DNA of 64,000 nt from Escherichia coli. Its GTDB lineage: Bacteria > Pseudomonadota > Gammaproteobacteria > Enterobacterales > Enterobacteriaceae. Where the stretch lies: the NCBI GenBank assembly GCA_009729775.1, contig GCA_009729775.1_4081.1; one strand, written 5' to 3'. The position numbers and the translations under genes are program-made. The notes beneath the pieces were generated by a model that saw only the letters and a list, made by a program, of their open reading frames with translations, did no database searches and had not been told where the DNA came from. Of the stretch, positions 35,438 through 55,605 are shown piece by piece. Within the stretch, counting starts at the first letter, position 1. Every line of letters begins with the position of its first letter.

Positions 35438-35454
35438 TTTAGTACTCCTTATTA

Positions 35455-35712: not shown

Positions 35713-35981
35713 AATAAGTATTCCACTTCGTTTGCTTTCAGGTTAGTATCAATCATCAGTGGCTTTTTGTAGTCCACAAAACGATTAGTTTTTTCGATAG
35801 CGAAGCCCATATAATCCAGCTTGCTTACCGTGCATTCATTCTTAAAAACTTCTTTCGCTGCATTGATGGCTGATTGCAATGTTAACCGACCATCTAAGTT
35901 AATGTTTCCAAATGATCCACCAGCAGAAGTAGGATTACCGTTCATATCTTTAATGATCATAGTTGCGGAGTAGCTAGACAT
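35709..35981 (-). CDS. hypothetical protein
   Basis: 90 aa ORF. Confidence 0.55.
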   Translation of the reverse strand: MSSYSATMIIKDMNGNPTSAGGSFGNINLDGRLTLQSAINAAKEVFKNECTVSKLDYMGFAIEKTNRFVDYKKPLMIDTNLKANEVEYLL

Positions 35982-36002
35982 AATTTTGTTTCCTTTTAGT
36001 AT

Positions 36003-36062
36003 CGGGGAGAACTATTCTCCCCTTGATGTAAACTATTATACAGTACTGATATACTTTGTCAA
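36003..36062 (-). promoter_or_regulatory. early promoter cassette (TTGACA-16-TATAAT) and hairpin GGGGAGAA-tagt-TCTCCCC
   Basis: reverse complement of intergenic region. Confidence 0.55.
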
Positions 36063-36065
36063 TAC

Positions 36066-36287
36066 TTAATTACGTTTAAAATGATATGTACCTTTATCAT
36101 CCTGTACGCCCCATACTGATTTACCATCAACGCCAGTGAAGCCGGATTGCAATTCAATATGGAAACCATTATTATCAACTACAAAAACTTTTTTATTTTC
36201 ATCCCGATAACATTGATATTCTGAATCAACATTAAAGGCCGCATCATTCAGAAGATTGGAAGCGTAAATGCAAGTCATTGTAGTCAT
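36066..36287 (-). CDS. hypothetical protein
   Basis: start at MTTMTCIY; track MVLP extension is hairpin. Confidence 0.55.
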   Translation of the reverse strand: MTTMTCIYASNLLNDAAFNVDSEYQCYRDENKKVFVVDNNGFHIELQSGFTGVDGKSVWGVQDDKGTYHFKRN

Positions 36288-36389
36288 GATTTTATTCCTT
36301 ATTCTTTGAGGGAGAACCATTTCCCCCTCTCGATATAAAACATTATACTTGATTCTAAGTACAATGCAAGTACTTTTTTAAAAATAGTT

Positions 36390-36510
36390 TTCAGTACTGA
36401 ATACTTATATAATAGATACACTTCCGCACCCTATGGGTCAGTGAGTTATCTCTCAATGAATATATAATAGCAAAGGGACTGACTGGAGTCAATCCCTTTT
36501 TTAATCTTTT
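36390..36510. repeat. repeated intergenic composite element, copy 2
   Basis: as above. Confidence 0.6.
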
Positions 36511-37095
36511 TTATCGTGTTATAGTTATCGCGTTAACATCACGTTTTTTATAGTACTGATTCCAGATATTGCGGGTTAAACCGTAATCAAGTACTTTAAT
36601 CAAGCCGTTGCGATCCTGGCCGATATTCTGTTTTCTGATATCTCTTATCGTTAGTGTGGATAATGTATCATCAACGTGATTGAGAGCATCAGCGAAATGG
36701 TGATGGCGTTCAATAGTGTTACGTTTAATATTGTACTTTAACTCATTACATGCGGTTACGTGCTTTACACTGCCTTTGCTTGCAGTACTCAAACGATCCA
36801 TAACAATAAACAGATTATCAGGATCGCATAAATGCATATGCACCTTGGCAAAGAACTGTTTAAGGTGCGGACGGTCATAATCTAAAAAATTCCATACCTT
36901 ACATTCAGTTTCATTTTGTTCTACACCCGCATCACAATTCGCGACCTTAATCACTAACCGATCATTTAAAGCGAATACAATACGGGAAGAACCCGCACCG
37001 ACGATCTCCAGTCCAGCTAACCGACAAGCTGAAAGGATCTCTTTGTTGGTTTCCATTGCATGAAGTGAACGGATGAATTTAGTATAGTTACGCAT
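36511..37095 (-). CDS. putative protein kinase-like protein
   Basis: Gly-rich loop GAGSSRIV, VIKV lysine, IRDIRKQN (HRD-like), DYG (DFG-like); start at MRNYTKF with GGAG RBS. Confidence 0.45.
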   Translation of the reverse strand: MRNYTKFIRSLHAMETNKEILSACRLAGLEIVGAGSSRIVFALNDRLVIKVANCDAGVEQNETECKVWNFLDYDRPHLKQFFAKVHMHLCDPDNLFIVMDRLSTASKGSVKHVTACNELKYNIKRNTIERHHHFADALNHVDDTLSTLTIRDIRKQNIGQDRNGLIKVLDYGLTRNIWNQYYKKRDVNAITITR

Positions 37096-37126
37096 TGTGT
37101 TGACTCCTTGAGTTAATGAAACTATA

Positions 37127-37369
37127 TTACAGTACTTTACTATCAATGGCAACTACTTTTTTTACTTGAACTGCGTGGAATACTTCACGCGTATTTTTAG
37201 TACTGAATACTTTTGCCGTACCTTGTTCGACCGCAATACGATAGCGACCGTTAACGTCCACCATGTTGATAAAGTCCGGTGTACTGAATGGAGTTACCCG
37301 GCATTTAAGAACGGTTAACAGTTCCACCAGCGTGGTAGTCTCTTTGATACGTTTTTCTAAAGTAATCAT
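37127..37369 (-). CDS. hypothetical protein
   Basis: start at MITLEKRIKE downstream of TTGACA-17-TACTAT. Confidence 0.5.
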   Translation of the reverse strand: MITLEKRIKETTTLVELLTVLKCRVTPFSTPDFINMVDVNGRYRIAVEQGTAKVFSTKNTREVFHAVQVKKVVAIDSKVL

Positions 37370-37426
37370 TTTGTTTTCCCCGTGTTGGTATGCATTCATA
37401 GTACTAAAACATTTGAGTACTGTCAA

Positions 37427-37645
37427 TTAGATAATAGAATATTTCTTTAGTGATAATGCGTCTTCTGTCGGTTGATATTCTACACCGTTCCCGTTATCAA
37501 CCTTAGTGAGTAAACCTTTATCAATGAGTTTTTTGATGGTACGGTTTCCCTGTTGAAAACTAGTGAAGTGTGAATCATTACGAAAGGTATAACCGTGCTT
37601 CACTGCTTCATCAATAGTTTTCTTTTCGATTTTAGATAATTTCAT
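37427..37645 (-). CDS. hypothetical protein
   Basis: 72 aa ORF. Confidence 0.5.
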   Translation of the reverse strand: MKLSKIEKKTIDEAVKHGYTFRNDSHFTSFQQGNRTIKKLIDKGLLTKVDNGNGVEYQPTEDALSLKKYSII

Positions 37646-37703
37646 TTTGTTTCTCTCTCTCTGTGTTGGTATAGATACATAATACTAAAACATTTGAGTA
37701 CTG

Positions 37704-37958
37704 TCAACGTGATATTAGTTTTATTTTTTTATTGTATTGTTGGTGTTCATATAGATTAATTTTTCCAGTACTCTCGATCACTATTCTATTGTTAGTGTCT
37801 ACATCGATAACACGTAGTTTCCCGTTGCTTAACTTCCTAGGCAATAGACTACCATTAATAAACTCATTAGCAAGCTGTACGGCCTTTGTGATGATTCTCT
37901 GTGGTGCTTTATAGTGTACCCGCAAGATATTATCTTTAGATAGTTGTACCTTCATCAT
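37704..37958 (-). CDS. hypothetical protein
   Basis: 84 aa basic ORF. Confidence 0.5.
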   Translation of the reverse strand: MMKVQLSKDNILRVHYKAPQRIITKAVQLANEFINGSLLPRKLSNGKLRVIDVDTNNRIVIESTGKINLYEHQQYNKKIKLISR

Positions 37959-37973
37959 TTTAGTTTATCCTAT

Positions 37974-37998
37974 AAAAAAGGCGGGAACTGAACCCGCC
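37974..37998 (-). terminator. rho-independent terminator
   Basis: GGCGGG-aactgaa-CCCGCC hairpin followed by U-tract on minus strand, after stop of 38022..38426. Confidence 0.55.
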
Positions 37999-38021
37999 GT
38001 GTTGTTAGTACTGCAAAGTTA

Positions 38022-38417
38022 TTAGATAACCTGGCGGCGTTTACTGTATACTGTTACACGGTTTCCTTTACGGTCATGACGGATCTCTTTCTGGTTACGA
38101 ATCAGTTCACTTGGACGCTTAAGGTTTGCCAGGTGATCCGCGTGAGTCCATGCATTACTATTCACTTGTACTTGAATATCAGAACCTTCCAAGAAGTCAT
38201 CTTGAGCGTTCAGTACTTCAGCCAGTTCTTGAGCTTTCTTCAGTTCTGCTTCAGTAAGTACTGGTTCAGGTGAATTCACAATATCAGAGATCTCTTTGAA
38301 CTGTACCGCCCAGCGTTGTCCTTTCGGTGCATCTTTGCCCATGTCTTTAAATGTTTCACCTTCTTCACGGGCAACGATGCGAGCTTGTTCACGGGTAGCG
38401 AAGAATTTAGTAATCAT
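38022..38417 (-). CDS. hypothetical protein, paralog of 50213..50479
   Basis: shared FATREQARIVAREEGETFKDMG and HDRKGNRVTVYS segments. Confidence 0.6.
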   Translation of the reverse strand: MITKFFATREQARIVAREEGETFKDMGKDAPKGQRWAVQFKEISDIVNSPEPVLTEAELKKAQELAEVLNAQDDFLEGSDIQVQVNSNAWTHADHLANLKRPSELIRNQKEIRHDRKGNRVTVYSKRRQVI

Positions 38418-38516
38418 GGTGTACATCCTATTAGTTAAGTTAATTAGTACTACAAGTTAGAGTCTATTATAAAGTACTATCTGGGTAATGTCAAATAGTA
38501 CTTTAAATGGATTCTA

Positions 38517-38840
38517 TTACATGTCTTTCTTACGTTTTACATCGTAGTAACGAACTGTAATTTCTTTGTTGATCTCTTCCTCAATTCTGTGTAGTACTTT
38601 CTCTTTCGGGTTGAAACCTATTACAGTTTCTTTAATGATCTCCAAGCCCGTGTATTCGCCTTGTGTACCGTAACCGTAAGTAAAGGTTTCATGTCCCAGG
38701 TCTTCCCAGCGGTCACCAATCAATGCAGACACGTAGCATGAGTGGTAAGTATTGCCGTGGCTATCAGTCCACCGATTAACTTTAATGTCAAAGGAAGTTA
38801 CAATTTTCATTTCTACTTTCTGGGTAAGGATCATAGCCAT
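38517..38840 (-). CDS. hypothetical protein, paralog of 45141..45485
   Basis: shared GNTY, YGYG and C-terminal VKRKKD motifs. Confidence 0.6.
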   Translation of the reverse strand: MAMILTQKVEMKIVTSFDIKVNRWTDSHGNTYHSCYVSALIGDRWEDLGHETFTYGYGTQGEYTGLEIIKETVIGFNPKEKVLHRIEEEINKEITVRYYDVKRKKDM

Positions 38841-38861
38841 TTTAATTTCTCTCTTTTAGTT

Positions 38862-38927
38862 AGGAGGGGAACCATTCCCCTGCCTTGATGTAAACTATTA
38901 TACAGTACTAAGATACTTTGTCAATAC
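38862..38927 (-). promoter_or_regulatory. early promoter cassette (TTGACA..TATAAT) and 5' hairpin
   Basis: reverse complement of intergenic region. Confidence 0.5.
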
Positions 38928-39129
38928 TTATTTGTTTTCTTTTCGTAATTTCTTTTCAGCTTCAACTACATTCTTATTTGTGCAAACTACTTCATCGGAT
39001 AAATCTAACTTCCATCCAGACAGGGGTTTGGTTTGTTTCTTTGCTGCTTTGTTCGCTTTCATGATGTTTCCTTTTTAATTAAGATGTAAACTATTATACA
39101 GTACTAAGATACTTTGTCAATCTATTTTA

Positions 39130-39330
39130 TTAGATAGTTTCCCATTTCATGTTACCCGCTTTACGCTGTGAAACAGGAATAAACATGTTATTAATGTTAC
39201 TAATATAACCGACCTGTAAGTCACGCTGTGAACCATATGCCCGACTTGCTGCATTTTTAGCACCGCGTTCTGATTTATAAACGCCGCTGGATACTGTAAA
39301 GCCTACTACACCGAAAGTAAAATGTTTCAT
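39130..39330 (-). CDS. hypothetical protein
   Basis: 66 aa ORF; two tandem promoters upstream. Confidence 0.5.
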   Translation of the reverse strand: MKHFTFGVVGFTVSSGVYKSERGAKNAASRAYGSQRDLQVGYISNINNMFIPVSQRKAGNMKWETI

Positions 39331-39524
39331 TTTGTATTCCTCTTTGTGGTTGATGTAAGTATTATACTCGTTTACTTTCTATTGTCAATCTTTTTTATCA
39401 GGGGAGTTTTTCGTATGTCTTACTCCTGGACTACTTAACGGGGTTACTTGTTTCGTTCCCCGTCCTGATGTAAAACATTATACTTGATTCTAAGTACAAT
39501 GCAAGTACTTTTTAAAAATAGTTT

Positions 39525-39689
39525 TCACTTACTCATATTAACAGGCTTAAACGGTGGCAATGTAAGATCATGCGGGGTTAAACTGTCATGCTTTGCCCAC
39601 ATACCAGAATCCCTACGGAATAATACCTTATTGTTTTTTATACGATAAAAGTTACCATTATCAGTGTTTTTATACCATACCATTTTCAT
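39525..39689 (-). CDS. hypothetical small protein (not in ORF track, below 60 aa)
   Basis: 54 aa ORF MKMVWYKNTDNG... with TTGCAA-16-TATAAT and GGAG RBS upstream. Confidence 0.4.
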   Translation of the reverse strand: MKMVWYKNTDNGNFYRIKNNKVLFRRDSGMWAKHDSLTPHDLTLPPFKPVNMSK

Positions 39690-39759
39690 TTACTCCTGGT
39701 TATGTCGTTATTAAACATTATACGGGGTTATAGATAGTTTGCAATTAGTTTTTCAGTAC

Positions 39760-39870
39760 TAGCCACCAGCATATAATAGATACATTTATGCACCCTGTGG
39801 GCTGATTTGTTTCTATGCGTATATAATAGCAAAGGGACTGACCGGAGTCAATCCCTTTTTTAATTCTTTT
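39760..39870. repeat. repeated intergenic composite element, copy 3
   Basis: as above. Confidence 0.6.
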
Positions 39871-40019
39871 TAAACTTGTTTTGGGTTGCGATATGTGATA
39901 GCGTTCGGGTACATTTGTTTAATGTTATTCCATGCCTGGTTAACATTGTAACCACTTGAGCGAATCAGTTGGTTACTACCGACACCTTGAAACACTACTT
40001 CGAATAAGAATTCTTTCAT
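39870..40019 (-). CDS. hypothetical small protein (below track cutoff)
   Basis: about 49 aa ORF MKEFLFEVVFQG...; ATGA overlap with upstream ORF. Confidence 0.3.
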   Translation of the reverse strand: MKEFLFEVVFQGVGSNQLIRSSGYNVNQAWNNIKQMYPNAITYRNPKQV

Positions 40020-40189
40020 GCTTTCACCTCGCGATCTGCTTTACCTTTACGCCACGCTGTTGCTAATTGTTCGCGTTGCCATAAGTCGAGTGATACGTAA
40101 AGTTTTGCATTATCACCCTTCGGATACTCGCCAGTAGTACCAATCCGATAAAACAGATCTTTCAGTACTGATAATTCCACCTGGATCAT
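40016..40189 (-). CDS. hypothetical small protein (below track cutoff)
   Basis: about 57 aa ORF MIQVELSVLKDL... Confidence 0.3.
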   Translation of the reverse strand: MIQVELSVLKDLFYRIGTTGEYPKGDNAKLYVSLDLWQREQLATAWRKGKADREVKA

Positions 40190-40297
40190 TGTATTACTCC
40201 TGATTGTGTTAGTACTTCTACGATGGCATGAATGATCATAAGTACAGCTAACACAACAATCATCGGATTCATTTGCATAAGCTGTACTCCTTATATA

Positions 40298-40510
40298 TTA
40301 ATCTTTCAGCCAATGATCTTGAATGAATTTTTCACAGAATCCCTGTTTCATAGATTCTAACAGGCGTTCACGGTGAGCGGCGGCATATTGCTCAGTACTA
40401 TGCGTTACGCCAGGTTGATAACGTGAAACACCGTCTGGTCCGATATATTGAACATCCCACGGTTTTTCGTTAGTATCAGACCATTTACGAACGATTAGTT
40501 GACCTTGCAT
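40298..40510 (-). CDS. hypothetical protein
   Basis: 70 aa ORF with promoter cassette and AGAGGA RBS. Confidence 0.55.
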   Translation of the reverse strand: MQGQLIVRKWSDTNEKPWDVQYIGPDGVSRYQPGVTHSTEQYAAAHRERLLESMKQGFCEKFIQDHWLKD

Positions 40511-40527
40511 GTTTCTTTCCTCTTAGT

Positions 40528-40587
40528 GGGGAGAATCATTTCTCCCCTTCATGTAACTTATTATACAGTACTAGATTACATTGTCAA
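40528..40587 (-). promoter_or_regulatory. early promoter cassette (TTGACA-16-TATAAT) and hairpin GGGGAGAA-tcat-TTCTCCCC
   Basis: -35 at 40582-40587, -10 at 40560-40565, hairpin 40528-40547 (coordinates on plus strand). Confidence 0.6.
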
Positions 40588-40593
40588 TAGTTT

Positions 40594-40917
40594 TTATTCA
40601 CCTTGTTTGAATATAGTTTTCTCCATTGATTCCATGATTGCAACCAATACAGCATGGATCTCACTTAACGCGGCATCACTAAAAGCATTAATGAATAGGC
40701 AATCATTCTCGCGAATATTTTTAATGTACTTATCAGCAGTGGTTGCGAATTCATTCAACGGCAGATCAAATGCTTTATCCCATAATGGATGGCGTAACTG
40801 TAACAGTACTGGATTATCACGGTCACCAGGTGAGAAAGTGCCTGTAATGAAACATACACCAGGGATACTTTCGAATTGACAACGAACTTCTTTTGTGATA
40901 GTAGTATGAATATACAT
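40594..40917 (-). CDS. hypothetical protein
   Basis: 107 aa ORF. Confidence 0.55.
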   Translation of the reverse strand: MYIHTTITKEVRCQFESIPGVCFITGTFSPGDRDNPVLLQLRHPLWDKAFDLPLNEFATTADKYIKNIRENDCLFINAFSDAALSEIHAVLVAIMESMEKTIFKQGE

Positions 40918-40944
40918 TTATTTTTATCCTCTATTAAATTAATA

Positions 40945-41133
40945 TTACAGTTTATGAATCAATTCTTTATCCAAGCGATAGCGAACATTATTGATTGTAA
41001 CTGCATTGTTTTTAATGCTACGCTGTACAGGTCCACCAGCAATAACAAACGTTGCCTTATTGCCCCGAACGATGATAGCACTTCCAGGATTACCGAAATC
41101 ATCTTGTACTAAAATGCTTGATAAGTTTTGCAT
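40945..41133 (-). CDS. hypothetical protein
   Basis: 62 aa ORF. Confidence 0.45.
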   Translation of the reverse strand: MQNLSSILVQDDFGNPGSAIIVRGNKATFVIAGGPVQRSIKNNAVTINNVRYRLDKELIHKL

Positions 41134-41149
41134 TTGTCTTTCCTTGTAG

Positions 41150-41208
41150 TGGGGAGAACTATTCTCCCCTTCATGTAAACAATTATACAGTACTGAAAAC
41201 TAATTGCA
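41150..41208 (-). promoter_or_regulatory. early promoter cassette (TTGCAA..TATAAT) and hairpin
   Basis: reverse complement of intergenic region. Confidence 0.5.
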
Positions 41209-41212
41209 AGTA

Positions 41213-41569
41213 CTATGATAAAATCATTATAGGATATTCACTATCAATCAGTACTTCAAAACCAAAACTTTCATACCATTCTTTAAGATTAAATGAGTTA
41301 TCTTCTCCCGTATCGCATTCTAAGATGATACAATCTGAATCATCGGCCGCATCAATAAAGGCATTCATTAATTCAGTACCTTCACCGTTACCGCGATTAT
41401 CGGGATCAACATAAAGAGAATCAATAAACGCTACACGATCATAATCAAGATCTGGTGCAACAATGCCACGTTTAACAAACCAGTACTGCAATTGTGCTAC
41501 TTTGCCTTGTACTTGATAGCCAGTGATCTCACCATTGTCTGTAGTACGCGTGATATGTTGTATACCCAT
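41213..41569 (-). CDS. possible GNAT-like acetyltransferase (weak)
   Basis: segment VAFIDSLYVDPDNRGNGEGTELMNAFIDAA resembles GNAT acetyl-CoA binding motif. Confidence 0.35.
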   Translation of the reverse strand: MGIQHITRTTDNGEITGYQVQGKVAQLQYWFVKRGIVAPDLDYDRVAFIDSLYVDPDNRGNGEGTELMNAFIDAADDSDCIILECDTGEDNSFNLKEWYESFGFEVLIDSEYPIMILS

Positions 41570-41632
41570 GATTTCAATCCTCAGTTAAGATATAAAATAT
41601 TATACACTAACTAACAGTACTGTCAATACTTT

Positions 41633-41890
41633 TTATCTCATAGATCTATGCCAACAATTACGCGGTTGACGTTTAAAAATACTATCATGATCCTCCTGGC
41701 AAGTTATGCAGTACTTACATCCCTTAACGGCCTGGCGACGTTTCTCAGGGATTATATCACCGCAGTCGAGGCAATGTATCAGTGATTCTATTTGTGCGTT
41801 AATTTGCGTTCTAGCGTGGTTAACAGCGGCCTGAATCACTGCGTTAATCTCGTCTTGCTCGGCCCCATCTTTCGTGAATCCTACAGCCAT
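41633..41890 (-). CDS. TraR/DksA-family C4 zinc-finger protein
   Basis: CLDC-x17-CITCQ (C-x2-C-x17-C-x2-C) signature in 85 aa protein. Confidence 0.6.
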   Translation of the reverse strand: MAVGFTKDGAEQDEINAVIQAAVNHARTQINAQIESLIHCLDCGDIIPEKRRQAVKGCKYCITCQEDHDSIFKRQPRNCWHRSMR

Positions 41891-42119
41891 TATTTTAACC
41901 TCATTATAAAAATACTATAGTACTGTAATGCGACAATAATATTACTTGTTCTTACTTTTTCCAATCCACATGATACAACATATTCATCCCCATATGTTCG
42001 AAACGAAACACCATGAAAATTTTTATACACTTGCACTTCTAATCATAACCTTTTGTCTAACCAACTGCGTAGAATTATACTACTTTACGCAAATTGATCA
42101 AGTATTGATCAGATCATTT

Positions 42120-42200
42120 TTTGATCAATATTATACAGTTACATTTGTGCACCCTATGGGTTAGTGCCTTGTGTCCGGCTTATGTACTTATTATACAGTA
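42120..42200. repeat. variant element with GCACCCTATGGG core and CCGGCTT hairpin
   Basis: similar to 50110-50200. Confidence 0.4.
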
Positions 42201-42221
42201 CTTGATGATATTGTCAATAGT

Positions 42222-42419
42222 TTATTTTAATTTTTTTCTGTCATTGATTAATGCTTTCAGTACTATACTAATAACTTGCAATGATTCATCAATGACTATA
42301 AAATTATTTTCTTTCATTAGATGATAGTTACCATTGATTGTATATTCTAATGAGTACTGTTTACGTTTAATTTTTGATAATGTATCAATTTGTTTTTGTA
42401 CTGATTTCATGCTAATCAT
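42222..42419 (-). CDS. hypothetical protein
   Basis: 65 aa ORF. Confidence 0.45.
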   Translation of the reverse strand: MISMKSVQKQIDTLSKIKRKQYSLEYTINGNYHLMKENNFIVIDESLQVISIVLKALINDRKKLK

Positions 42420-42526
42420 TGTTAAACGTCCTGTAATGCATTCTAACGAGATAAACGGTTTAGTACTGGCATTGTATAGGGTAAATGATTAAAGCCCACC
42501 AGCGTTAACCAGTGGGCTATAATCTT

Positions 42527-42670
42527 ACATCTTGCGGATAATCTTAACAGTATCTTTCACCGATTTACCGTCTTGCTGACATTGTTCGATCATCGCGTAT
42601 TGTTCTGCGGTCAGATCCTCGCCAGTTTTTGCCAGTACTGCGTCGATGAATGAATCCAGTGCGATCATTT
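42527..42670 (-). CDS. hypothetical small protein (below track cutoff)
   Basis: 47 aa ORF MIALDSFIDAVLAK... Confidence 0.3.
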
Positions 42671-42767
42671 TATTTCTCTCTTAGGTTAAGTTAACTACTG
42701 TTGATAAAAGTTATTATACAGTACTATCAAACATTGTCAATAGATTTAATAGTACTGGTAATATATT

Positions 42768-42947
42768 TTAGCGGTAATCGTCGTATGCTTTATTAACCTG
42801 GCGAATGTAACTTTCAAAGGCTTCGTCTACCGTTTCATACTCCCGAACATAATCACCATAGGAAACTACATACATCCCTTTTTGATCTTCAAACGTCATG
42901 ATGATAGAATCCAGTCCGATGATTTCAGTTTTTGCGATAATAGCCAT
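42768..42947 (-). CDS. hypothetical protein
   Basis: start at MAIIAKTEI; repeated promoter cassette upstream. Confidence 0.5.
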   Translation of the reverse strand: MAIIAKTEIIGLDSIIMTFEDQKGMYVVSYGDYVREYETVDEAFESYIRQVNKAYDDYR

Positions 42948-43038
42948 TTTAGTATTCCTTAAATTAATATGCGTTGTCTTGATAAAAGTTATTATGCCAG
43001 TACTATCAAACGTTGTCAATAGTACTGTGATAATATTT

Positions 43039-43251
43039 TTAGTTAATGATAGTCAGTGTAAAATTGTAATCCCCTGCCTGGTATAGTACTTTATCGCCGA
43101 ACGTGCCAACACGTTTCATATTGCAATAGATACCCATAACATTTTTTACATCTTTGATATTCCGAACGCCAGTGATATCCTTGTTGAAATTTTCATGATC
43201 AGAAAATAAAACTTGTTTTGCATTTTTCAGTACAGTGCAGATATTAGCCAT
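43039..43251 (-). CDS. hypothetical protein
   Basis: 70 aa ORF. Confidence 0.5.
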   Translation of the reverse strand: MANICTVLKNAKQVLFSDHENFNKDITGVRNIKDVKNVMGIYCNMKRVGTFGDKVLYQAGDYNFTLTIIN

Positions 43252-43270
43252 TTCGATTTCTCTCTGTTAG

Positions 43271-43338
43271 TAGGGAAGTACTGTTACTTCCCGTGCCTTG
43301 ATGTAAACTATTATACAGTACTATAATCTATTGTCAAA
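43271..43338 (-). promoter_or_regulatory. early promoter cassette (TTGACA-16-TATAAT) and hairpin GGGAAGTA-acag-TACTTCCC
   Basis: reverse complement of intergenic region. Confidence 0.5.
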
Positions 43339-43351
43339 CTATTTTTTAATA

Positions 43352-43693
43352 TTATTCAAAATCTTCTGGACCGGACTGATAATCATCCTCACCGTATGCA
43401 CTTTCTAACTTCTCGCCAGTGTAATCATCAGTTAGTGAGTCATCCTCATAGTTCACGTCTACGCCCGTGATGTAAAACTGGCTATCGTCTGGATCATTGA
43501 AATTAATTTTCTGAATGTTTACAATAACTGTATTGATACCCAGGACACAGCCATCAGCCGTTACAAAGTACTGATATTTTTCACATCCACCACTATTGAA
43601 ACCGTAATTGATTTCGGCCCGACCATCATTTAAACGCAGTGCCTGAGCGATGATTTCGTTTTCAAAGTTAGATTGAGCAATTGCAATAGTCAT
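43352..43693 (-). CDS. hypothetical acidic protein
   Basis: 113 aa ORF. Confidence 0.55.
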   Translation of the reverse strand: MTIAIAQSNFENEIIAQALRLNDGRAEINYGFNSGGCEKYQYFVTADGCVLGINTVIVNIQKINFNDPDDSQFYITGVDVNYEDDSLTDDYTGEKLESAYGEDDYQSGPEDFE

Positions 43694-43789
43694 GATTCGT
43701 TTCCTTATTACCAGGGGAAACCGTTTCCCCTTGCGATGTAAAACATTATACGCCTATTGATATAGTTTGCAAGTACTTTTTATCAAATA

Positions 43790-43920
43790 CTTTAAAATAG
43801 TTTTCAGTACTCAATCATTATACAATAGATACACTTATGCACCCTGTGGGCTAGTGAGCTATCTCTCAATGAATACATAATAGCAAAATGGCTGACCGAA
43901 GTCAACCACTTTTTTTCATT
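43790..43920. repeat. repeated intergenic composite element, copy 4 (more diverged hairpin)
   Basis: as above. Confidence 0.5.
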
Positions 43921-44054
43921 TATTTTTAGCTTTTAGAATCGCCGCCTTTCGCGTCATGCCTTGCTTGATGTACTCCTTTACTTTCGCTTTACGTGCTTTC
44001 GCTTTATCTGCTTTCGTTTTAGGAGTACTGTAAATTAAACCGTTAGGATTCATT
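43917..44054 (-). CDS. hypothetical small basic protein (below track cutoff)
   Basis: 45 aa Lys-rich ORF MNPNGLIYSTPKTKADKAKARKAK... Confidence 0.3.
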
Positions 44055-44139
44055 TAAATCACCATAAAGAATAGATAGGTTACTAACAATGCCGCCAGTA
44101 CTGCACCGACCAGGGCCGAACTATAGTAAGCTAATGATT

Positions 44140-44292
44140 TCATTTTTTAGCCTGAAAGTAATGTTTAATTTGTGCGGCGGTCAGTGCACAATTACGCAGG
44201 AAGTTTTCTGTATAACTTTTACGAGTACTGAAAGAGTACTGACCTTTCCCGTTACCGATAGTAACATCAAACCGAGCGTTATATTGTTTCAT
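44140..44292 (-). CDS. hypothetical small protein
   Basis: start at MKQYNARFD; track MVLP extension is hairpin. Confidence 0.45.
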   Translation of the reverse strand: MKQYNARFDVTIGNGKGQYSFSTRKSYTENFLRNCALTAAQIKHYFQAKK

Positions 44293-44309
44293 TTTGTTTC
44301 TCCTAGTAT

Positions 44310-44382
44310 CGGGGAGAACCATTCCCCCCCTCTATGTAAACAATTATACAGTACTGAAAACTAATTGCAAGTACTTTCTAAG
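44310..44382 (-). promoter_or_regulatory. early promoter cassette (TTGCAA..TATAAT) and 5' hairpin
   Basis: reverse complement of intergenic region. Confidence 0.5.
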
Positions 44383-44567
44383 TAATGTTTATAAGCTGAA
44401 TCAACCACTCTTTCGATAACATACGCTAACGGCACGTATCCAACTACATGACTACAATAAAAAGGACTACGATTAGAATCATCGTATGCAAATACTTTTT
44501 CAGGATCTGCATCAATCACATACATATTAACCTTTAAGATGTCTATCTTATCCTGTACAGTAAGCAT
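44361..44567 (-). CDS. hypothetical protein
   Basis: start at MLTVQDK; upstream part of track ORF overlaps another small ORF in a different frame. Confidence 0.45.
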   Translation of the reverse strand: MLTVQDKIDILKVNMYVIDADPEKVFAYDDSNRSPFYCSHVVGYVPLAYVIERVVDSAYKHYLESTCN

Positions 44568-44571
44568 ATTA

Positions 44572-44742
44572 CGCCGCCTTATCAGTACTGGCAACCGGAC
44601 GGATACGGGCCATTTCATGGGCTTGTTCCACACTGTAACGCTCATAAAGGCGGCATTCTTCCGGTGTAGGAACAGCATCAATACGTTTCATTGGTTTAAT
44701 GATGCTTTCAACTTCATTCAGTACTTGATTAACGTTCATGGT
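44572..44742 (-). CDS. hypothetical small protein (below track cutoff)
   Basis: 56 aa ORF MNVNQVLNEVES..., stop 2 nt before next ATG. Confidence 0.35.
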
Positions 44743-44790
44743 ATAATCCCCAATATAAGCGGCCTAAATCGACCGCTAACGATGTTTTGA

Positions 44791-45060
44791 TTAATAGGTG
44801 TATGGTTGACGCTCAAACAATGATTGCACGTTGTACGCCCCGCTAATGGGCTTTGCTGGCAAATCAATTTTATATTGTTCACGCTTAAAAATAATAAAAC
44901 GGCAATTGTTTTTAACATCAAAATTGATTGAACGTTCCAATAGCTTTCCTTCGTGTACAAATACAAGATAACCGCTTGCTACTTGTTTTGTAGTACTGGT
45001 TGCAACCATTGACCGACGAACATGAGTACCTGCATCGATTAAAGTACTGATATTTTTCAT
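44791..45060 (-). CDS. hypothetical protein
   Basis: 89 aa ORF. Confidence 0.5.
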   Translation of the reverse strand: MKNISTLIDAGTHVRRSMVATSTTKQVASGYLVFVHEGKLLERSINFDVKNNCRFIIFKREQYKIDLPAKPISGAYNVQSLFERQPYTY

Positions 45061-45140
45061 TTTACTATCCTCTTAATTTGATTTAATTTCTTTCCCCTAT
45101 GCAGACACTATATCAAAGTATCTGCATAAAGTAAAGCTAA

Positions 45141-45485
45141 TTAAAGATCTTTTTTGCGTTTAACATCAGTTACCGAACTGTAAACAGTGATATTATTGTC
45201 ACGGCAAAAACGGGAAAGATAAGAACCGCGTAAAAACTCTTTATCTTCCATATTAATAACCTTGCTAAATTCTTCCATTGCTACAGTGTCAAAGTGATCC
45301 CCGTATCCATATTGGAACGGCACGTTTACTACTTCAATAAAATTACCATCAATTTCTACGTCTACACTTAAAGAGAAATAAGTGTTACCATATGAAGCCT
45401 GGAACCAACGCCGAGCGGCAATATGTACAACTTCAACAGAAGACAGGTTGATATTTTGTGCTGAGATAGTGTTGATGTTAGCCAT
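45141..45485 (-). CDS. hypothetical protein, paralog of 38517..38840
   Basis: shared motifs, C-terminal VKRKKDL. Confidence 0.6.
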   Translation of the reverse strand: MANINTISAQNINLSSVEVVHIAARRWFQASYGNTYFSLSVDVEIDGNFIEVVNVPFQYGYGDHFDTVAMEEFSKVINMEDKEFLRGSYLSRFCRDNNITVYSSVTDVKRKKDL

Positions 45486-45566
45486 TTTAATTTCCTCTTA
45501 GTTGTCTTGATAAAATCTATTATGCCAGTACTATCAAACTATGTCAATAGTACTGTGATAATAATT

Positions 45567-45779
45567 TTACTTACTTTGCTTTGATGCTTTATGTTGTGCA
45601 ACTGCCATCACTACATCAGCACGAACAAAGTTAGCAACCGTATCAGTATAATATTTGATTGCATCGTCAATATCTGCGAACATCCGATACATTCCGCACC
45701 ATGATACTTTATAACCCGCTTTCACTTGTTCCAGTTTAACCAGTGAATTGTTTACTTTGATTTTTGTAATGATAGCCAT
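45567..45779 (-). CDS. hypothetical protein
   Basis: 70 aa ORF, N-terminus MAIITK similar to 42768..42947. Confidence 0.5.
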   Translation of the reverse strand: MAIITKIKVNNSLVKLEQVKAGYKVSWCGMYRMFADIDDAIKYYTDTVANFVRADVVMAVAQHKASKQSK

Positions 45780-45862
45780 TTTTGTTTCCTCTTAGTTGTC
45801 TTGATAAAATCTATTATGCCAGTACTATCAATCTATGTCAATAGTACTGTGATAATAATTTT

Positions 45863-46006
45863 ACTTACTTTTTGCTTTCTTTATTGCTTCCACCTGGTCG
45901 GCCCACTCTTTACCCCATACTTGAGCGTTATAGTGATACTGACAAAGAGCAACGCCCCGTTTCAAACCAGTGATAGATTTTTTACCACATTGACAAGTTT
46001 TCATTT
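45863..46006 (-). CDS. hypothetical small Cys-containing protein (below track cutoff)
   Basis: 47 aa ORF MKTCQCGKKS...CQYH with its own promoter-hairpin cassette and RBS. Confidence 0.4.
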
Positions 46007-46020
46007 TTAGTTTCCTCTTA

Positions 46021-46086
46021 GTGGGGAGAATCATTTCTCCCCTTGATGTAATGTATTATACTTTATCCGATTTACTTTGCAAGTAC
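46021..46086 (-). promoter_or_regulatory. early promoter cassette (TTGCAA..TATAAT) and hairpin GGGGAGAA-tcat-TTCTCCCC
   Basis: reverse complement of intergenic region. Confidence 0.5.
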
Positions 46087-46089
46087 TTT

Positions 46090-46317
46090 TTAGTTTAATT
46101 CATCCAGGCATAAGATACGATCTACGCCGAGATCCGTTAAGCTAATGGTTGGCACTTGATAGGTTTCAATGTATTCTACACTAGCCCACTGACCGAACTC
46201 ATTCACCGCCCAGGTATTCATTGCAAAATGTAATTCCGCACCTTTCTTATTAGTAATTACAGCAACAGTAGAAGAATTGCCAGTAGTACCAGATACGCGA
46301 GTGATTACGATAGCCAT
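46090..46317 (-). CDS. hypothetical protein
   Basis: 75 aa ORF. Confidence 0.5.
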   Translation of the reverse strand: MAIVITRVSGTTGNSSTVAVITNKKGAELHFAMNTWAVNEFGQWASVEYIETYQVPTISLTDLGVDRILCLDELN

Positions 46318-46750
46318 TGTTTTGATTCCTATTCAGTAGTTGATGTATGTATTATGTCAGTACTTAAAACTATTGTCAAACTATTTTTTAAAGACTATCT
46401 ACGATAGCTGCCGTTTCAATAATAGACTTACCTTTTTTTGAACATGCAATAACTGCTTTAAATTCCTTTGATGACCATTCTTTTTTACTGCATACTAACA
46501 TTACTTGCATAGTGAAACAATCCAGTTCATAAGTATTCATCTTTAAATCCTCAGTTAGTTAAGGTGTCTTGCCTTGATGTAACTAATTATACGCCTTTCT
46601 CTTAATCGTGCAAGTACTTTTTATTACTTTTTGCAAAATACTTTAAACGCTCTCAATCGCATTCTAACGGCCTTAACTCCACCAGCTAGGGCGATGCATC
46701 AGATAATCAGTTTAATGCGTTAGAATCGATTCTATGAGGTGCTGACGGTC

Positions 46751-46786
46751 TGGAATGCAATAAAAACAAAAAAGCCCACTGCTTAT
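46751..46786 (-). terminator. rho-independent terminator
   Basis: AGCCCAC-N8-GTGGGCT hairpin with long U-tract on minus strand after stop of 46816..47313. Confidence 0.6.
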
Positions 46787-46815
46787 AGTGGGCTAGTGAT
46801 TCAGTACTTTAAATG

Positions 46816-47298
46816 TTATGCTTCAATTTTGCGGTGAGATTCGATCCATTCCTCGCGAGTCATACCGCTTTCTTTGATAGCATCCAGTACTACCGCAATG
46901 CAGTTACCGCGTACAGGAATCAAATGTTCTTCCCCGTTATCAAGGACAACCGTAACACGTTCTTGAATCCATTTTTTAGGCTTAGATTCCGGCTTATCTT
47001 CACCGTACTTAACCGCCAGGGCTTTATGTGCCATTTCAATAACCACTTCCAGATCTAAACCAGACACCGCCGCCTGAATACTTTCTATTGTTGCTTGCAG
47101 TTCTGCTTCACGGGCTTTTTTCTGTTCTTCCAGTTCTGCTACCTTTTTGGCTTGTAGTTCTTTCGCTTCACTGTAAGCAATGTTAAAATTGTTGCGTACT
47201 GCTTTCATGGTATCATTATCCAGGTCAGCCAGCAATTCAGCAGCAATCACAGTATCGTTAGAAATCAGTGCTTTCAGAAATGATTTTACATTAGCCAT
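46816..47298 (-). CDS. hypothetical protein, predicted coiled-coil
   Basis: start at MANVKSFLK; Ala/Glu/Lys-rich heptad-like segment. Confidence 0.55.
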   Translation of the reverse strand: MANVKSFLKALISNDTVIAAELLADLDNDTMKAVRNNFNIAYSEAKELQAKKVAELEEQKKAREAELQATIESIQAAVSGLDLEVVIEMAHKALAVKYGEDKPESKPKKWIQERVTVVLDNGEEHLIPVRGNCIAVVLDAIKESGMTREEWIESHRKIEA

Positions 47299-47482
47299 TT
47301 TATAAATCCTCAATTAAAGTTTAAGTTAGTTTATCAAAGTTTGTTTGACGTGTCCAGTTTTTCATTCGACTTACTGGCGGTCTACTTAATGTTCCCCGTC
47401 TTGATGTAATACATTCTACGCTTTTCCCTGGTAATGTCAACTACTTTTTTAAAACTATTTTCAAAGTATACCAGTACTACGA

Positions 47483-47520
47483 TAATACAAAAACAAAAAA
47501 GCCCACTGTTTAAGGTGGGC
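47483..47520 (-). terminator. rho-independent terminator
   Basis: GCCCAC-N8-GTGGGC hairpin with U-tract on minus strand after stop of 47539..47838. Confidence 0.6.
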
Positions 47521-47538
47521 TAGTGATTCAGTACTAGA

Positions 47539-47838
47539 TTATAAACAGTTAATTACTCCGGTGTGCGTTACTTTCTCAGTATCCATCACAGTGACCGAAC
47601 CGCGTTTAGTACTGGCATCATAATAAATTGTTGTGCTACCGTTTTTGTCTTCTTCATGGAACGGGCCGTTTTTAAATGCTTCCGGCTGGATCTCTAAATC
47701 CTTTAATACAATCTCGCCAGTTCTTTCATCGGTCATTGCAACAGTGCACTGAATGAATTTTTCACTACTTACATCTAATGACGCATTAACAGCGAAAGAG
47801 GAAACAGATAAAGCCAGGGCGATGATTGCAATTTTCAT
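47539..47838 (-). CDS. secreted protein with N-terminal signal peptide
   Basis: MKIAIIALALSVSSFAVNA signal-like N-terminus. Confidence 0.55.
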   Translation of the reverse strand: MKIAIIALALSVSSFAVNASLDVSSEKFIQCTVAMTDERTGEIVLKDLEIQPEAFKNGPFHEEDKNGSTTIYYDASTKRGSVTVMDTEKVTHTGVINCL

Positions 47839-55604: not shown

Positions 55605-55605
55605 A

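What the first reader, a model, noticed from the sequence alone, without database searches (positions are those of the whole stretch)
41633..41890. Phage-encoded TraR/DksA-type zinc finger
The 85-aa protein carries CLDC-x17-CITCQ, the C4 finger signature of the DksA/TraR family, which binds the RNA polymerase secondary channel. A phage copy may redirect host transcription.
Basis: partly seen in the sequence, partly recalled or inferred. Interest (0 to 1): 0.5.

Follow-up and report, generated by a model that had tools for sequence, protein, structure and literature searches.

The report
Jumbo-phage TraR/DksA-family (YbiI-like) zinc-finger protein
This is a real small gene of a 121Q/PBECO4-like jumbo coliphage that encodes a TraR/DksA-family zinc-finger protein, probably a host RNA polymerase binder; near-identical genes are already annotated this way in related phages, so it is largely ordinary, although its polymerase-facing tip differs from the tested TraR proteins.

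Summary
Window 41633-41890 (- strand) is an 85-aa ORF with C40xxC43-x17-C61xxC64, the same spacing as F-plasmid TraR. It passes Pfam PF01258 (41.2 bits, cut-off 24.9) and matches PHROG 54 "DksA-like zinc-finger protein".

The window is an Asteriusvirus (121Q/PBECO4-like jumbo coliphage). The 121Q ortholog, gp294, is already annotated as a C4 / DksA-like zinc-finger protein.

The nearest solved relative is E. coli YbiI (2KGO), followed by TraR. An AlphaFold model superposes on RNAP-bound TraR (TM 0.67-0.72, rmsd about 2.5 A). The RNAP-contact motif IPExRR (TraR E46, R48, R49) is conserved.

The functionally required N-terminal DxxDxA motif is not conserved. Profile-profile alignment covers only residues 18-74. 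The tip is a different, strongly conserved sequence (MAVGFaKDGAEQxE), and there is an invariant basic tail (PRNCWHRSMR) that TraR lacks.

The gene is the second cistron of a small unit behind a sigma-70-like promoter, in a region of consensus early promoters.

The most likely role is an early secondary-channel binder of host RNAP that biases transcription towards the phage. A TraR-like effect on rRNA promoters is plausible but not shown. I class it as a new member of a known kind, of modest interest.

The parts
41633..41890 (-). CDS of the 85-aa TraR/DksA-family (YbiI-like) C4 zinc-finger protein, stop codon included
   Evidence: ORF; Pfam PF01258 41.2 bits against cut-off 24.9; PHROG 54 E 7e-19; ortholog is 121Q gp294
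41849..41890 (-). Codons 1-14, the conserved N-terminal tip MAVGF(T/A)KDGAEQxE. It replaces the DxxDxA tip of TraR. Residues 1-7 are predicted non-helical.
   Evidence: M1, A2, G4 and E14 are invariant and V3, F5, K7, D8, G9, A10, E11, Q12 are at least 90% conserved in 39 cluster representatives. There are 6 synonymous against 2 non-synonymous codon differences from T4-like orthologs. hhalign does not align this stretch to TraR, Orf73 or Orf82. pLDDT is below 50 for residues 1-6.
41804..41869 (-). Codons 8-29, the long N-terminal helix, equivalent to the TraR-N helix that lies in the RNAP secondary channel; it contains the invariant R27 (TraR R24)
   Evidence: AF2 secondary structure H8-29; R27 is invariant across all alignments; hhalign register 18-74 to TraR 15-71
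41699..41773 (-). Codons 40-64, the C4 zinc knuckles C40xxC43-x17-C61xxC64
   Evidence: Read directly from the sequence; all four Cys are invariant; Pfam match covers residues 39-68
41735..41752 (-). Codons 47-52, I-P-E-K-R-R, equivalent to TraR I44-P45-E46-A47-R48-R49 (contacts with the beta' rim helices and beta'Si3)
   Evidence: I47, P48, R51 and R52 are invariant and E49 is 97% conserved. The roles of TraR E46, R48 and R49 come from PMC9239242 and PMC6970531.
41678..41707 (-). Codons 62-71, the C-terminal helix, equivalent to TraR-C which contacts the beta lobe-Si1
   Evidence: AF2 H62-71; aligned to TraR up to residue 71 by hhalign
41636..41677 (-). Codons 72-85, the conserved basic tail FKRxPRNCWHRSMR. 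It is absent from TraR and homologous to the YbiI tail YNRRGSKDSQLR.
   Evidence: R74 and R77-R82 are invariant in 39 representatives. There are 5 synonymous against 1 non-synonymous differences from T4-like orthologs. PHROG 25948 matches residues 59-85. P0097 carries an intermediate tail, NRKVWHRSMR.
41899..41902 (-). Shine-Dalgarno GAGG, 8 nt upstream of the ATG
   Evidence: Sequence read
41890..42036 (-). Upstream 48-aa ORF (121Q gp293, PHROG 38664, function unknown). Its TAA stop overlaps the zinc-finger ATG (TAATG), so the two genes are probably translationally coupled.
   Evidence: ORF; annotated in 121Q; PHROG 38664 E 7e-36; not homologous to the ORFs upstream of the gene in T4-like phages
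42074..42101 (-). Sigma-70-like promoter TTGATC-16-TATAAT (10 of 12), the probable promoter of the 48-aa ORF / zinc-finger bicistron
   Evidence: Consensus scan; position is inferred relative to the ORF start at 42036
41599..41626 (-). Perfect sigma-70 consensus promoter TTGACA-16-TATAAT just after the zinc-finger stop codon. It serves the next gene, a GNAT acetyltransferase at 41213-41569, and marks the 3' limit of the unit.

Best explanation
The ORF is a real phage gene. It is probably expressed early by host sigma-70 RNA polymerase as the second cistron of a two-gene unit. It encodes a small zinc-finger protein of the TraR/DksA family, in the YbiI branch. The most likely mechanism has three parts. 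First, the Zn-stabilised globular domain docks at the entrance of the host RNAP secondary channel, through the conserved I-P-E-x-R-R patch, onto the beta' rim helices and beta'Si3. Second, the long N-terminal helix runs down the channel towards the active site. Third, the short C-terminal helix and basic tail lie against the beta lobe-Si1. In this way the protein changes open-complex kinetics without ppGpp, as TraR and lambda Orf73 do. The expected result is lower output from host promoters with short-lived open complexes (rRNA and ribosomal-protein promoters). RNAP and NTPs would then be freed for phage promoters, which here have consensus hexamers and A+T-rich discriminators. What is shown: the gene is real, it belongs to the family, the predicted fold matches, the contact residues are conserved, and the promoter context is as described. 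What is inferred: RNAP binding, early expression, and the direction of the transcriptional effect. The last is the weakest step, because the tip is not the canonical DxxDxA.
For: Family and fold:
- Pfam PF01258 scores above its cut-off and PHROG 54 matches.
- The best NCBIfam model is the YbiI model NF008243 at 78.4 bits.
- PDB sequence hits are YbiI at 1e-11 and TraR at 2e-5.
- The AF2 model has the helix / Zn domain / helix layout and matches RNAP-bound TraR chains 6N57_M and 5W1S_N with TM 0.67-0.72 and rmsd 2.5-2.6 A.
- hhalign to TraR, lambda Orf73 and P2 Orf82 gives 98.8% probability over residues 18-74.

Contact residues:
- I47, P48, R51 and R52 are invariant and E49 is 97% conserved.
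- They correspond to TraR E46, R48 and R49, which mediate rim-helix and Si3 contacts (PMC9239242; PMC6970531).

Precedent:
- All five phage TraR homologs tested bound RNAP, inhibited rrnB P1 and complemented a dksA deletion, including two with imperfect DxxDxA motifs and one with an N-terminal extension (PMC9239242).
- YbiI itself was reported to rescue dksA-deletion auxotrophy when overexpressed, as data not shown (PMC2613031).

Context:
- Asteriusvirus phages carry a phage sigma factor and are thought to use host RNAP (PMC11895373). The related phage PA5oct relies on host RNAP (PMC7318152).
- The window holds 12 perfect TTGACA-N16-TATAAT promoters, all on the gene's strand, against 0.13 expected.
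- Their discriminators have 0-3 G/C in 8 bases. By established Gourse-lab promoter kinetics, this type is not inhibited by DksA or TraR.
Against: - The DxxDxA motif is absent. It is required for TraR and Orf73 function (D3N and D6N variants are defective) and for VP882 TraR.
- In the register fixed by the invariant R27 (TraR R24) and by hhalign, the motif positions are T6, G9 and E11. The N-terminal 17 residues do not align at all.
- The nearest acidic pair is D8xxE11. In E. coli DksA the equivalent D74E change abolishes function, although D80E is tolerated in Rhodobacter DksA (PMC4010833).
- Some C4 family members of intermediate length do not act like DksA.
- The protein scores below the curated cut-offs of the TraR subfamily and of the YbiI and TraR equivalog models.
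- The AF2 model has only moderate confidence (pLDDT 69.5), and the tip and tail are poorly defined.
- There are no expression or binding data for this phage.
Confidence: 0.6

Rival explanations
1. The protein binds the RNAP secondary channel but does not act like TraR. With a non-canonical, Gre-like DxxE tip plus a flexible conserved heptapeptide, it would act mainly as a plug or competitor. It might exclude host DksA/ppGpp or GreA/GreB, blunting a stringent-type response to infection. Alternatively its tip might directly occlude the active site or NTP entry, giving general host shut-off.
For: - The docking residues (IPExRR, R27) and the fold are conserved, but the tip is replaced.
- In DksA the tip aspartates are needed for function but not for binding.
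- DksA D74E loses function.
- Gre factors use DxxExA.
- The tip is as strongly conserved as the zinc ligands and is under purifying selection, so it does something specific.
- TraR residue 2 is already 4.3 A from the Mg2+, so five extra residues must go somewhere in the active-centre region.
Against: - Homologs with imperfect motifs or an N-terminal extension still inhibited rrnB P1 and complemented a dksA deletion, with lower potency.
- YbiI, which shares this tip type, was reported to rescue dksA-deletion auxotrophy, which argues for DksA-like rather than anti-DksA output.
- A general plug would also hit phage transcription, which depends on host RNAP.
Confidence: 0.22
2. It is a YbiI-type zinc-finger protein whose real partner is not RNAP. 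It might bind another host or phage protein or a nucleic acid through the conserved tip and basic tail, and the family resemblance would be only structural.
For: - YbiI is functionally uncharacterised, and the authors who tested it suspected a role in iron metabolism. It is a sigma-S regulon gene of unknown function.
- Some C4 DksA/TraR-family proteins do not function like DksA.
- The invariant basic tail PRNCWHRSMR has no counterpart in TraR.
- A Mosigvirus 54-aa protein keeps only the second knuckle, the C-helix and the tail. This suggests the C-terminal module can stand without the channel helix.
- VP882 TraR has a dedicated protein partner.
Against: - The exact RNAP-contact residues of TraR (E46, R48, R49 and R24) are invariant or nearly so here, which is hard to explain without RNAP as a partner.
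- The model superposes on RNAP-bound TraR.
- The family is confined largely to Proteobacteria and their phages, which carry the Si1 and Si3 insertions.
- The neighbouring ORFs are not conserved between Asteriusvirus and T4-like phages, so there is no conserved partner gene.
Confidence: 0.15
3. It is a chance ORF or a decaying pseudogene with a fortuitous cysteine pattern.
For: The ORF is short and lies in a 34% G+C genome where short ORFs abound. No expression data exist.
Against: - The Pfam score is above the curated threshold.
- Full-length conservation extends across distinct phage families at 61-95% identity with no frameshifts.
- Synonymous changes outnumber non-synonymous ones in the conserved segments.
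- There is a good Shine-Dalgarno sequence and an upstream promoter.
Confidence: 0.01

Closest known systems
E. coli YbiI (PDB 2KGO; NCBIfam NF008243 / PRK11019), an uncharacterised DksA/TraR-family C4 zinc-finger protein
   Same: - It is the best sequence match among solved structures (E 1.2e-11, aligned over residues 1-69) and the best NCBIfam model.
- Both share the N-terminal tip type MA-x-G-[FW]-x-x-D-G/D-A and the same CxxC-x17-CxxC spacing.
- Both share IP-x-x-RR and a conserved C-terminal basic tail ending S-[QM]-[LM]-R.
- Length is similar (85 against 88 aa).
   Different: - The score of 78.4 bits is below the equivalog cut-off of 96, and identity is only about 36-39%.
- The phage clade has E11 and E14 where YbiI-like proteins have V and Q.
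- Its tail is PRNCWHRSMR instead of YNRRGSKDSQLR.
- It is encoded by lytic phages, not by a sigma-S-dependent chromosomal gene.
- YbiI's own function is unknown, so this similarity transfers little mechanism.
F-plasmid TraR (PDB 5W1S, 6N57) and the tested phage homologs lambda Orf73, P2 Orf82, VHML Orf8, VP882 Orf61 and X. bovienii Gp34
   Same: - All are small single-helix proteins with a C4 zinc domain and a C-terminal helix.
- The cysteine spacing is identical.
- Equivalents of TraR R24, I44, P45, E46, R48 and R49 are conserved.
- The model matches RNAP-bound TraR with TM 0.67-0.72.
- All are carried by mobile elements of gamma-proteobacteria. The tested ones bind RNAP, inhibit rRNA promoters without ppGpp, and lambda Orf73 raises burst size (PMC9239242).
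   Different: - There is no DxxDxA. The first 17 residues are not alignable.
- The tip is MAVGFaKDGAEQxE, with two conserved glycines and an aromatic residue.
- There is a 12-14-residue invariant basic tail beyond the TraR C-terminus.
- Scores are below the TIGR02419 cut-off (52.2 against 59.7) and the TraR equivalog cut-off (28.9 against 108).
- It is found in strictly lytic jumbo and T4-like phages, not in temperate phages near lysis-lysogeny modules.
DksA (PDB 1TJL, 5VSW, 7KHI)
   Same: The Pfam zinc-finger domain is the same. The model aligns with the DksA globular domain and one coiled-coil helix (TMq about 0.52). The presumed binding site, the RNAP secondary channel, is the same.
   Different: The protein is half the size. 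It has a single helix instead of a coiled coil and no ppGpp-site residues. It lacks the DxxDxA tip. The NCBIfam DksA model gives only 13.5 bits.
GreA/GreB tip motif DxxExA
   Same: D8-G-A-E11 in the phage clade reads DxxE, like the Gre tip rather than the DksA/TraR tip.
   Different: There is no sequence or fold homology to Gre factors. Position +5 is D, L or N, not A. No evidence exists for transcript-cleavage activity. This is a resemblance only and was not tested.

Membership tests
Pfam PF01258 zf-dskA_traR (DksA/TraR C4 zinc finger) | Profile score at or above the curated gathering threshold (24.9 bits) | tested here: met
   41.2 bits, E 1.6e-10, residues 39-68 on profile positions 5-34 of 36
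Pfam PF01258 zf-dskA_traR (DksA/TraR C4 zinc finger) | Four cysteines spaced CxxC-x17-CxxC | tested here: met
   C40, C43, C61 and C64 read from the sequence; invariant in 43 homologs; same spacing as TraR C37, C40, C58, C61
TraR-like RNAP regulators (TraR, lambda Orf73 and others; PMC9239242) | Conserved DxxDxA motif at the N-terminus of the helix, required for function | tested here: not met
   In the register set by the invariant R27 (TraR R24) and by hhalign (aligned 18-74 to 15-71), the motif positions are T6, G9 and E11. Residues 1-17 do not align. The nearest acidic pattern is D8xxE11xD13, and position 13 is variable (D, L or N).
TraR-like RNAP regulators (TraR, lambda Orf73 and others; PMC9239242) | Globular-domain residues equivalent to TraR R48 (rim helices) and E46/R49 (beta'Si3) | tested here: met
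   I47-P48-E49-K50-R51-R52 align with TraR I44-P45-E46-A47-R48-R49. R51 and R52 are invariant and E49 is 97% conserved.
TraR-like RNAP regulators (TraR, lambda Orf73 and others; PMC9239242) | Three-element fold: long N-terminal helix, Zn globular domain, C-terminal helix | tested here: met
   AF2 gives H8-29, the Zn region and H62-71 (pLDDT 69.5). Foldseek gives 6N57_M TMt 0.67 with rmsd 2.5 A and 5W1S_N TMt 0.72 with rmsd 2.6 A. The helix is about 3 residues shorter at its N-terminus than TraR's, and the C-helix is shorter (10 against 16 residues).
TraR-like RNAP regulators (TraR, lambda Orf73 and others; PMC9239242) | Binds the RNAP secondary channel, inhibits rrnB P1 without ppGpp, and complements a dksA deletion | not testable with these tools
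   This needs biochemistry and genetics. The only indirect support is the report that YbiI rescues a dksA deletion (PMC2613031, data not shown).
NCBIfam TIGR02419 C4_traR_proteo (phage/conjugal plasmid TraR subfamily) | Score at or above the curated cut-off of 59.7 bits | tested here: not met
   52.2 bits, residues 16-67 only
NCBIfam NF008243 / PRK11019 (YbiI equivalog) | Score at or above the curated cut-off of 96 bits | tested here: not met
   78.4 bits over residues 1-72. It is the best-scoring model but falls below the equivalog threshold.
YbiI-like branch (defined here from the profile search) | N-terminal MA-x-G-[FWY]-x-x-[DE]-G-A tip and a conserved basic C-terminal tail ending S-[QM]-[LM]-[RK] | tested here: met
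   The tip and tail align with YbiI and with YbiI-like representatives. P0097 carries an intermediate tail, NRKVWHRSMR.
DksA proper | Coiled-coil domain, ppGpp site-2 residues, and the NCBIfam DksA model | tested here: not met
   The protein is 85 aa with a single helix. NF033459 gives 13.5 bits against a cut-off of 105.

The most novel reading that the evidence does not exclude
The YbiI-type tip is a flexible, highly conserved M-A-x-G-[FW]-x-x-D-G-A peptide ahead of a shortened channel helix. Together with the invariant basic tail, it may define a mechanistically distinct class of RNAP secondary-channel effectors. On this reading the peptide reaches past the position of TraR residue 2 (4.3 A from the catalytic Mg2+) into the active centre. 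It would then block or retune catalysis directly rather than purely allosterically. Lytic jumbo and T-even-like phages would have adopted an acidified version (E11, E14) as an early host shut-off or take-over factor. This would also give the first function for E. coli YbiI.
Probability: 0.15. Interest if true: 0.6.

Novelty: new member of a known kind. Interest (0 to 1): 0.27.

Why it matters
Small proteins that bind the RNAP secondary channel let mobile elements reprogram host transcription without triggering the stringent response. So far this has been shown only for an F-plasmid protein and for temperate-phage proteins that carry a canonical DxxDxA tip. This gene shows that strictly lytic phages which depend on host RNAP throughout infection keep a related protein under strong purifying selection. 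Those phages are the Asteriusvirus jumbo phages and several T4-like genera. Their protein keeps the docking residues but has a different tip and an extra tail. Testing it would show whether the YbiI branch, including the uncharacterised E. coli gene, acts on RNAP at all. It would also show whether the tip sequence sets the regulatory outcome. As a genome-scan hit the finding is modest, because the family assignment is already present in public annotations of near-identical orthologs.

Tried and rejected
- **Conserved partner gene.** I looked for a partner like QisA of VP882. The translationally coupled upstream 48-aa ORF has no similarity to the ORFs that abut the gene in T4-like phages. All ten neighbours fall in lineage-specific PHROGs of unknown function, apart from one GNAT acetyltransferase.
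- **Rescuing DxxDxA by alignment.** MAFFT gives three mutually inconsistent placements of the N-terminus (and an ungapped offset-5 reading against lambda Orf73). hhalign declines to align residues 1-17. I therefore rejected my initial idea that D8xxE11 sits in register with Orf73 D3xxD6, because the invariant Arg (R27 = TraR/Orf73 R24) fixes an offset of 3.
- **DNA-level explanation for the conserved tail.** I asked whether the invariant tail reflects DNA-level conservation, such as the adjacent promoter. I rejected this because T4-like orthologs differ at 5 of 11 tail codons synonymously.
- **RNA elements.** Rfam and tRNA scans of the whole window found nothing. Folding the repeated intergenic element upstream of the unit gave no significant structure (z = -0.96).
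- **Literature.** A whole-word search for YbiI mostly returned ytterbium chemistry. The 2017 PNAS TraR paper and the 2012 DksA-tip paper are not held, so D74E and the conserved-residue data are cited second-hand from PMC4010833 and PMC9239242. The jumbo-phage comparative review does not mention DksA or TraR.

Full report
**1. The observation**

The ORF is at window 41633..41890 on the - strand. It has an ATG start and encodes 85 aa: MAVGFTKDGAEQDEINAVIQAAVNHARTQINAQIESLIHCLDCGDIIPEKRRQAVKGCKYCITCQEDHDSIFKRQPRNCWHRSMR. This is the same spacing as F-plasmid TraR. A GAGG Shine-Dalgarno sequence lies 8 nt upstream of the ATG.

- Pfam PF01258 zf-dskA_traR scores 41.2 bits, E 1.6e-10, against a curated cut-off of 24.9.
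- PHROG 54 "DksA-like zinc-finger protein" scores E 7e-19.

**2. Where the window comes from, and whether the gene is known**

The surrounding 2.5 kb is about 93% identical to Asteriusvirus jumbo coliphages (vB_EcoM_CRJP21, SP27, 121Q, PBECO4 and others). In 121Q the ortholog is gp294, annotated "C-4 type zinc finger protein" in GenBank and "DksA-like zinc-finger protein" in RefSeq.

tblastn finds the protein in 684 phage records:
- 34 records are at 80% identity or more (Asteriusvirus).
- About 129 are at 60-80%. These are mostly 170-kb T4-like phages of Klebsiella, Citrobacter, Escherichia and Yersinia, in genera such as Moonvirus and Gaprivervirus, where the gene sits in the tk-rI-mobD region.
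- More distant matches include lambda and Stx phages.

The closest protein cluster in the large collection (94% identity) is already named "TraR/DksA C4-type zinc finger protein". The family assignment is therefore right but not new.

**3. Which branch of the family**

- NCBIfam ranks the YbiI model first (NF008243, 78.4 bits, below its cut-off of 96). The TraR subfamily model TIGR02419 comes next (52.2, below 59.7). The TraR and DksA equivalog models score far lower.
- Among solved structures, the best sequence hits are E. coli YbiI (2KGO, E 1.2e-11, aligned from residue 1) and then TraR (5W1S and 6N57, E 2e-5).
- A profile search of 1.84 billion cluster representatives gives 2488 hits at E 1e-3 or better and 269 at 1e-10 or better. 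Only one hit reaches 1e-30 or better, so the phage clade is a single tight cluster.
- The next-best hits are YbiI-like proteins with consensus MAxGW..DGAVQDQID...CxxC...CxxCQ...YNRRGSKDSQLR.

The phage protein shares both hallmarks of that branch. One is the tip MA-x-G-[FW]-x-x-D-G-A. The other is a conserved basic C-terminal tail. One representative, P0097, carries an intermediate tail (NRKVWHRSMR), which links the two tail types.

**4. Anatomy and conservation**

An AlphaFold2 model built from 43 homologs has mean pLDDT 69.5. It shows a disordered N-terminus (residues 1-7), a helix at 8-29, the zinc domain, a helix at 62-71 and a low-confidence tail. Foldseek against the PDB returns YbiI, then TraR taken from RNAP complexes (6N57_M TMt 0.67 with rmsd 2.5 A; 5W1S_N TMt 0.72 with rmsd 2.6 A), then DksA.

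Across 39 cluster representatives of the phage clade (61-94% identical), the following residues are invariant or nearly so:
- M1-A-V-G-F-x-K-D-G-A-E-Q12, and E14.
- A17, A21, A22, H25, A26, R27 and Q29 on one helix face.
- The four cysteines.
- I47-P-E-x-R-R52.
- G57, Y60, Q65, D69 and F72-K-R74.
- P76-R-N-C-W-H-R-S-M-R85.

Codon comparison with two T4-like orthologs shows that the tip and the tail are conserved at the protein level. The tip has 6 synonymous against 2 non-synonymous differences, and the tail has 5 against 1.

**5. Comparison with the functionally defined TraR features**

Gopalkrishnan et al. 2022 (PMC9239242) and Chen et al. 2019 (PMC6970531) define three functional elements:
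- An N-terminal helix with a DxxDxA motif. The helix reaches the active site, with residue 2 lying 4.3 A from the Mg2+.
- A zinc globular domain in which R48 contacts the beta' rim helices and E46, R49 and K50 contact beta'Si3.
- A C-terminal helix that lies on the beta lobe-Si1.

The second element is fully conserved here. I47-P-E-K-R-R52 corresponds to TraR I44-P-E-A-R-R49, and R51 and R52 are invariant. A C-terminal helix is present but shorter.

The first element is not conserved. Profile-profile alignment against TraR, lambda Orf73 and P2 Orf82 is highly significant (98.8%), but it covers only residues 18-74, matched to TraR 15-71. The register is fixed by an arginine that is invariant in all sequences (R27 = TraR R24 = Orf73 R24). 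This places the DxxDxA positions on T6, G9 and E11. The closest acidic pattern is D8xxE11, which resembles the Gre DxxE tip.

The motif matters:
- D3N and D6N cripple lambda Orf73.
- An NxxNxA variant abolishes growth arrest by VP882 TraR.
- D74E inactivates E. coli DksA, although D80E is tolerated in the Rhodobacter protein.

On the other side, homologs lacking D3 or A8, or carrying an N-terminal extension, still bound RNAP and inhibited rrnB P1, with higher IC50. YbiI was reported to rescue dksA-deletion auxotrophy when overexpressed, as data not shown.

**6. Genomic context**

- The gene's ATG overlaps the TAA of a 48-aa ORF at 41890-42036 (TAATG). That ORF is 121Q gp293 and PHROG 38664, of unknown function.
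- A sigma-70-like promoter, TTGATC-16-TATAAT at 42101-42074, precedes that ORF.
- Immediately after the zinc-finger stop codon, a perfect TTGACA-16-TATAAT promoter at 41626-41599 serves a GNAT acetyltransferase gene.
- The window contains 12 such perfect promoters, all on the - strand between 34.8 and 52.5 kb, against 0.13 expected.
- These promoters have A+T-rich discriminators (0-3 G/C in 8) and A+T-rich upstream regions.
- The region is a run of small, lineage-specific ORFs, typical of an early region.
- Asteriusvirus phages encode a sigma factor and no RNAP has been reported for them. The related PA5oct depends on host RNAP.

**7. Most likely mechanism**

I propose an early protein that docks at the host RNAP secondary channel through the conserved IPExRR patch. 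It places its helix in the channel and alters initiation kinetics independently of ppGpp. This would disfavour host promoters with unstable open complexes (rRNA and ribosomal-protein promoters) relative to the phage's consensus, A+T-discriminator promoters.

- Shown: the gene is real, it belongs to the family, the predicted fold matches, the contact residues are conserved, and the promoter context is as described.
- Inferred: RNAP binding, timing of expression, and the sign of the effect.

Because the tip is non-canonical, I give the TraR-like outcome only moderate confidence.

I keep two rivals. In the first, the protein binds the channel but has a different output, acting as a competitor or plug. 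In the second, its partner is not RNAP. Chance or pseudogene status is excluded by the conservation data.

**8. Novelty and verdict**

Phage-encoded TraR homologs that reprogram host RNAP are established (PMC9239242, PMC11323111 and the 2026 VP882 preprint). Orthologs of this gene are already annotated as DksA/TraR zinc fingers. The only new points are descriptive:
- The Asteriusvirus and T4-like clade belongs to the YbiI branch.
- It lacks DxxDxA.
- It has a strongly constrained tip and tail.
- It occurs in strictly lytic phages.

I class the finding as a new member of a known kind, with interest of about 0.27. The most novel reading still open is that the YbiI-type tip is a distinct way of acting on the RNAP active centre. 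I give that a probability of about 0.15.

Noticed in passing
window 34846-52547, - strand (for example 41599-41626, 42190-42217, 42713-42740): There are twelve perfect sigma-70 consensus promoters, TTGACA-N16-TATAAT, all on the - strand, against 0.13 expected by chance. Most carry a conserved AGTACTG immediately before the -10 hexamer, an A+T-rich upstream region and an A+T-rich discriminator. This looks like the early-promoter set of this jumbo phage.
   Followed up: partly
window about 36380-36500, 39745-39865, 42105-42225, 43795-43915 and 50095-50215, - strand: A repeated intergenic module of about 100 nt occurs in five copies. It has a hairpin plus T-run overlapping a TTGAC -35 element, then a conserved core GCCCAYAGGGTGCAnAARTGTATCTATT. 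There is no Rfam match, and the copy at 42105-42185 has no significant predicted fold. Its function is unknown; it could be a terminator-promoter cassette, a small transcript or a protein-binding site.
   Followed up: partly
L005:1117-1281 (Escherichia phage vB_EcoM_JS09, Mosigvirus), PHROG 25948: A 54-aa protein consists of an unrelated acidic N-terminus fused to the second CxxC knuckle, the C-helix and the identical tail (FCVGCQSMRDEIFKREPRNCWHRSMR). It lies in the same tk-rI-mobD region. It is either a truncated or recombined derivative of the zinc-finger gene, or evidence that the C-terminal module works on its own. CxxC plus C-W-H could form an alternative metal site.
   Followed up: partly
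window, 10-30 nt downstream of the promoters at 34846, 36035, 38897, 40560 and 43310, - strand: Several of the consensus promoters are followed by a G+C-rich 5'-UTR hairpin of similar sequence (for example GGGGAGAAatgaTTCTCCCC). These could be mRNA-stabilising or regulatory leader structures.
   Followed up: no
window 1-28000 (- strand) and 55000-64000 (+ strand): The first 28 kb holds about 55 tightly packed, often overlapping - strand ORFs of 100-220 aa, possibly paralogous families. Near 55-56 kb the coding strand switches to larger + strand ORFs of 358-449 aa. There is no tRNA gene and no Rfam family anywhere in the window.
   Followed up: no
Zinc-finger orthologs in Asteriusvirus compared with Straboviridae (L003:2501-2758, L004:2501-2758): The same 85-aa protein, at 64-72% identity with identical tip and tail, is shared by unrelated phage lineages: 350-kb Asteriusvirus and 170-kb T4-like genera. 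Its neighbouring genes differ between them. This implies horizontal exchange of the single gene among lytic enterobacterial phages.
   Followed up: partly
window 41213-41569, - strand: A 118-aa GNAT-type acetyltransferase (PHROG 1249 and 3810) lies immediately downstream with its own perfect consensus promoter. It and the zinc finger are the only two genes with any functional label in this stretch of small early ORFs. Its target is unknown.
   Followed up: no
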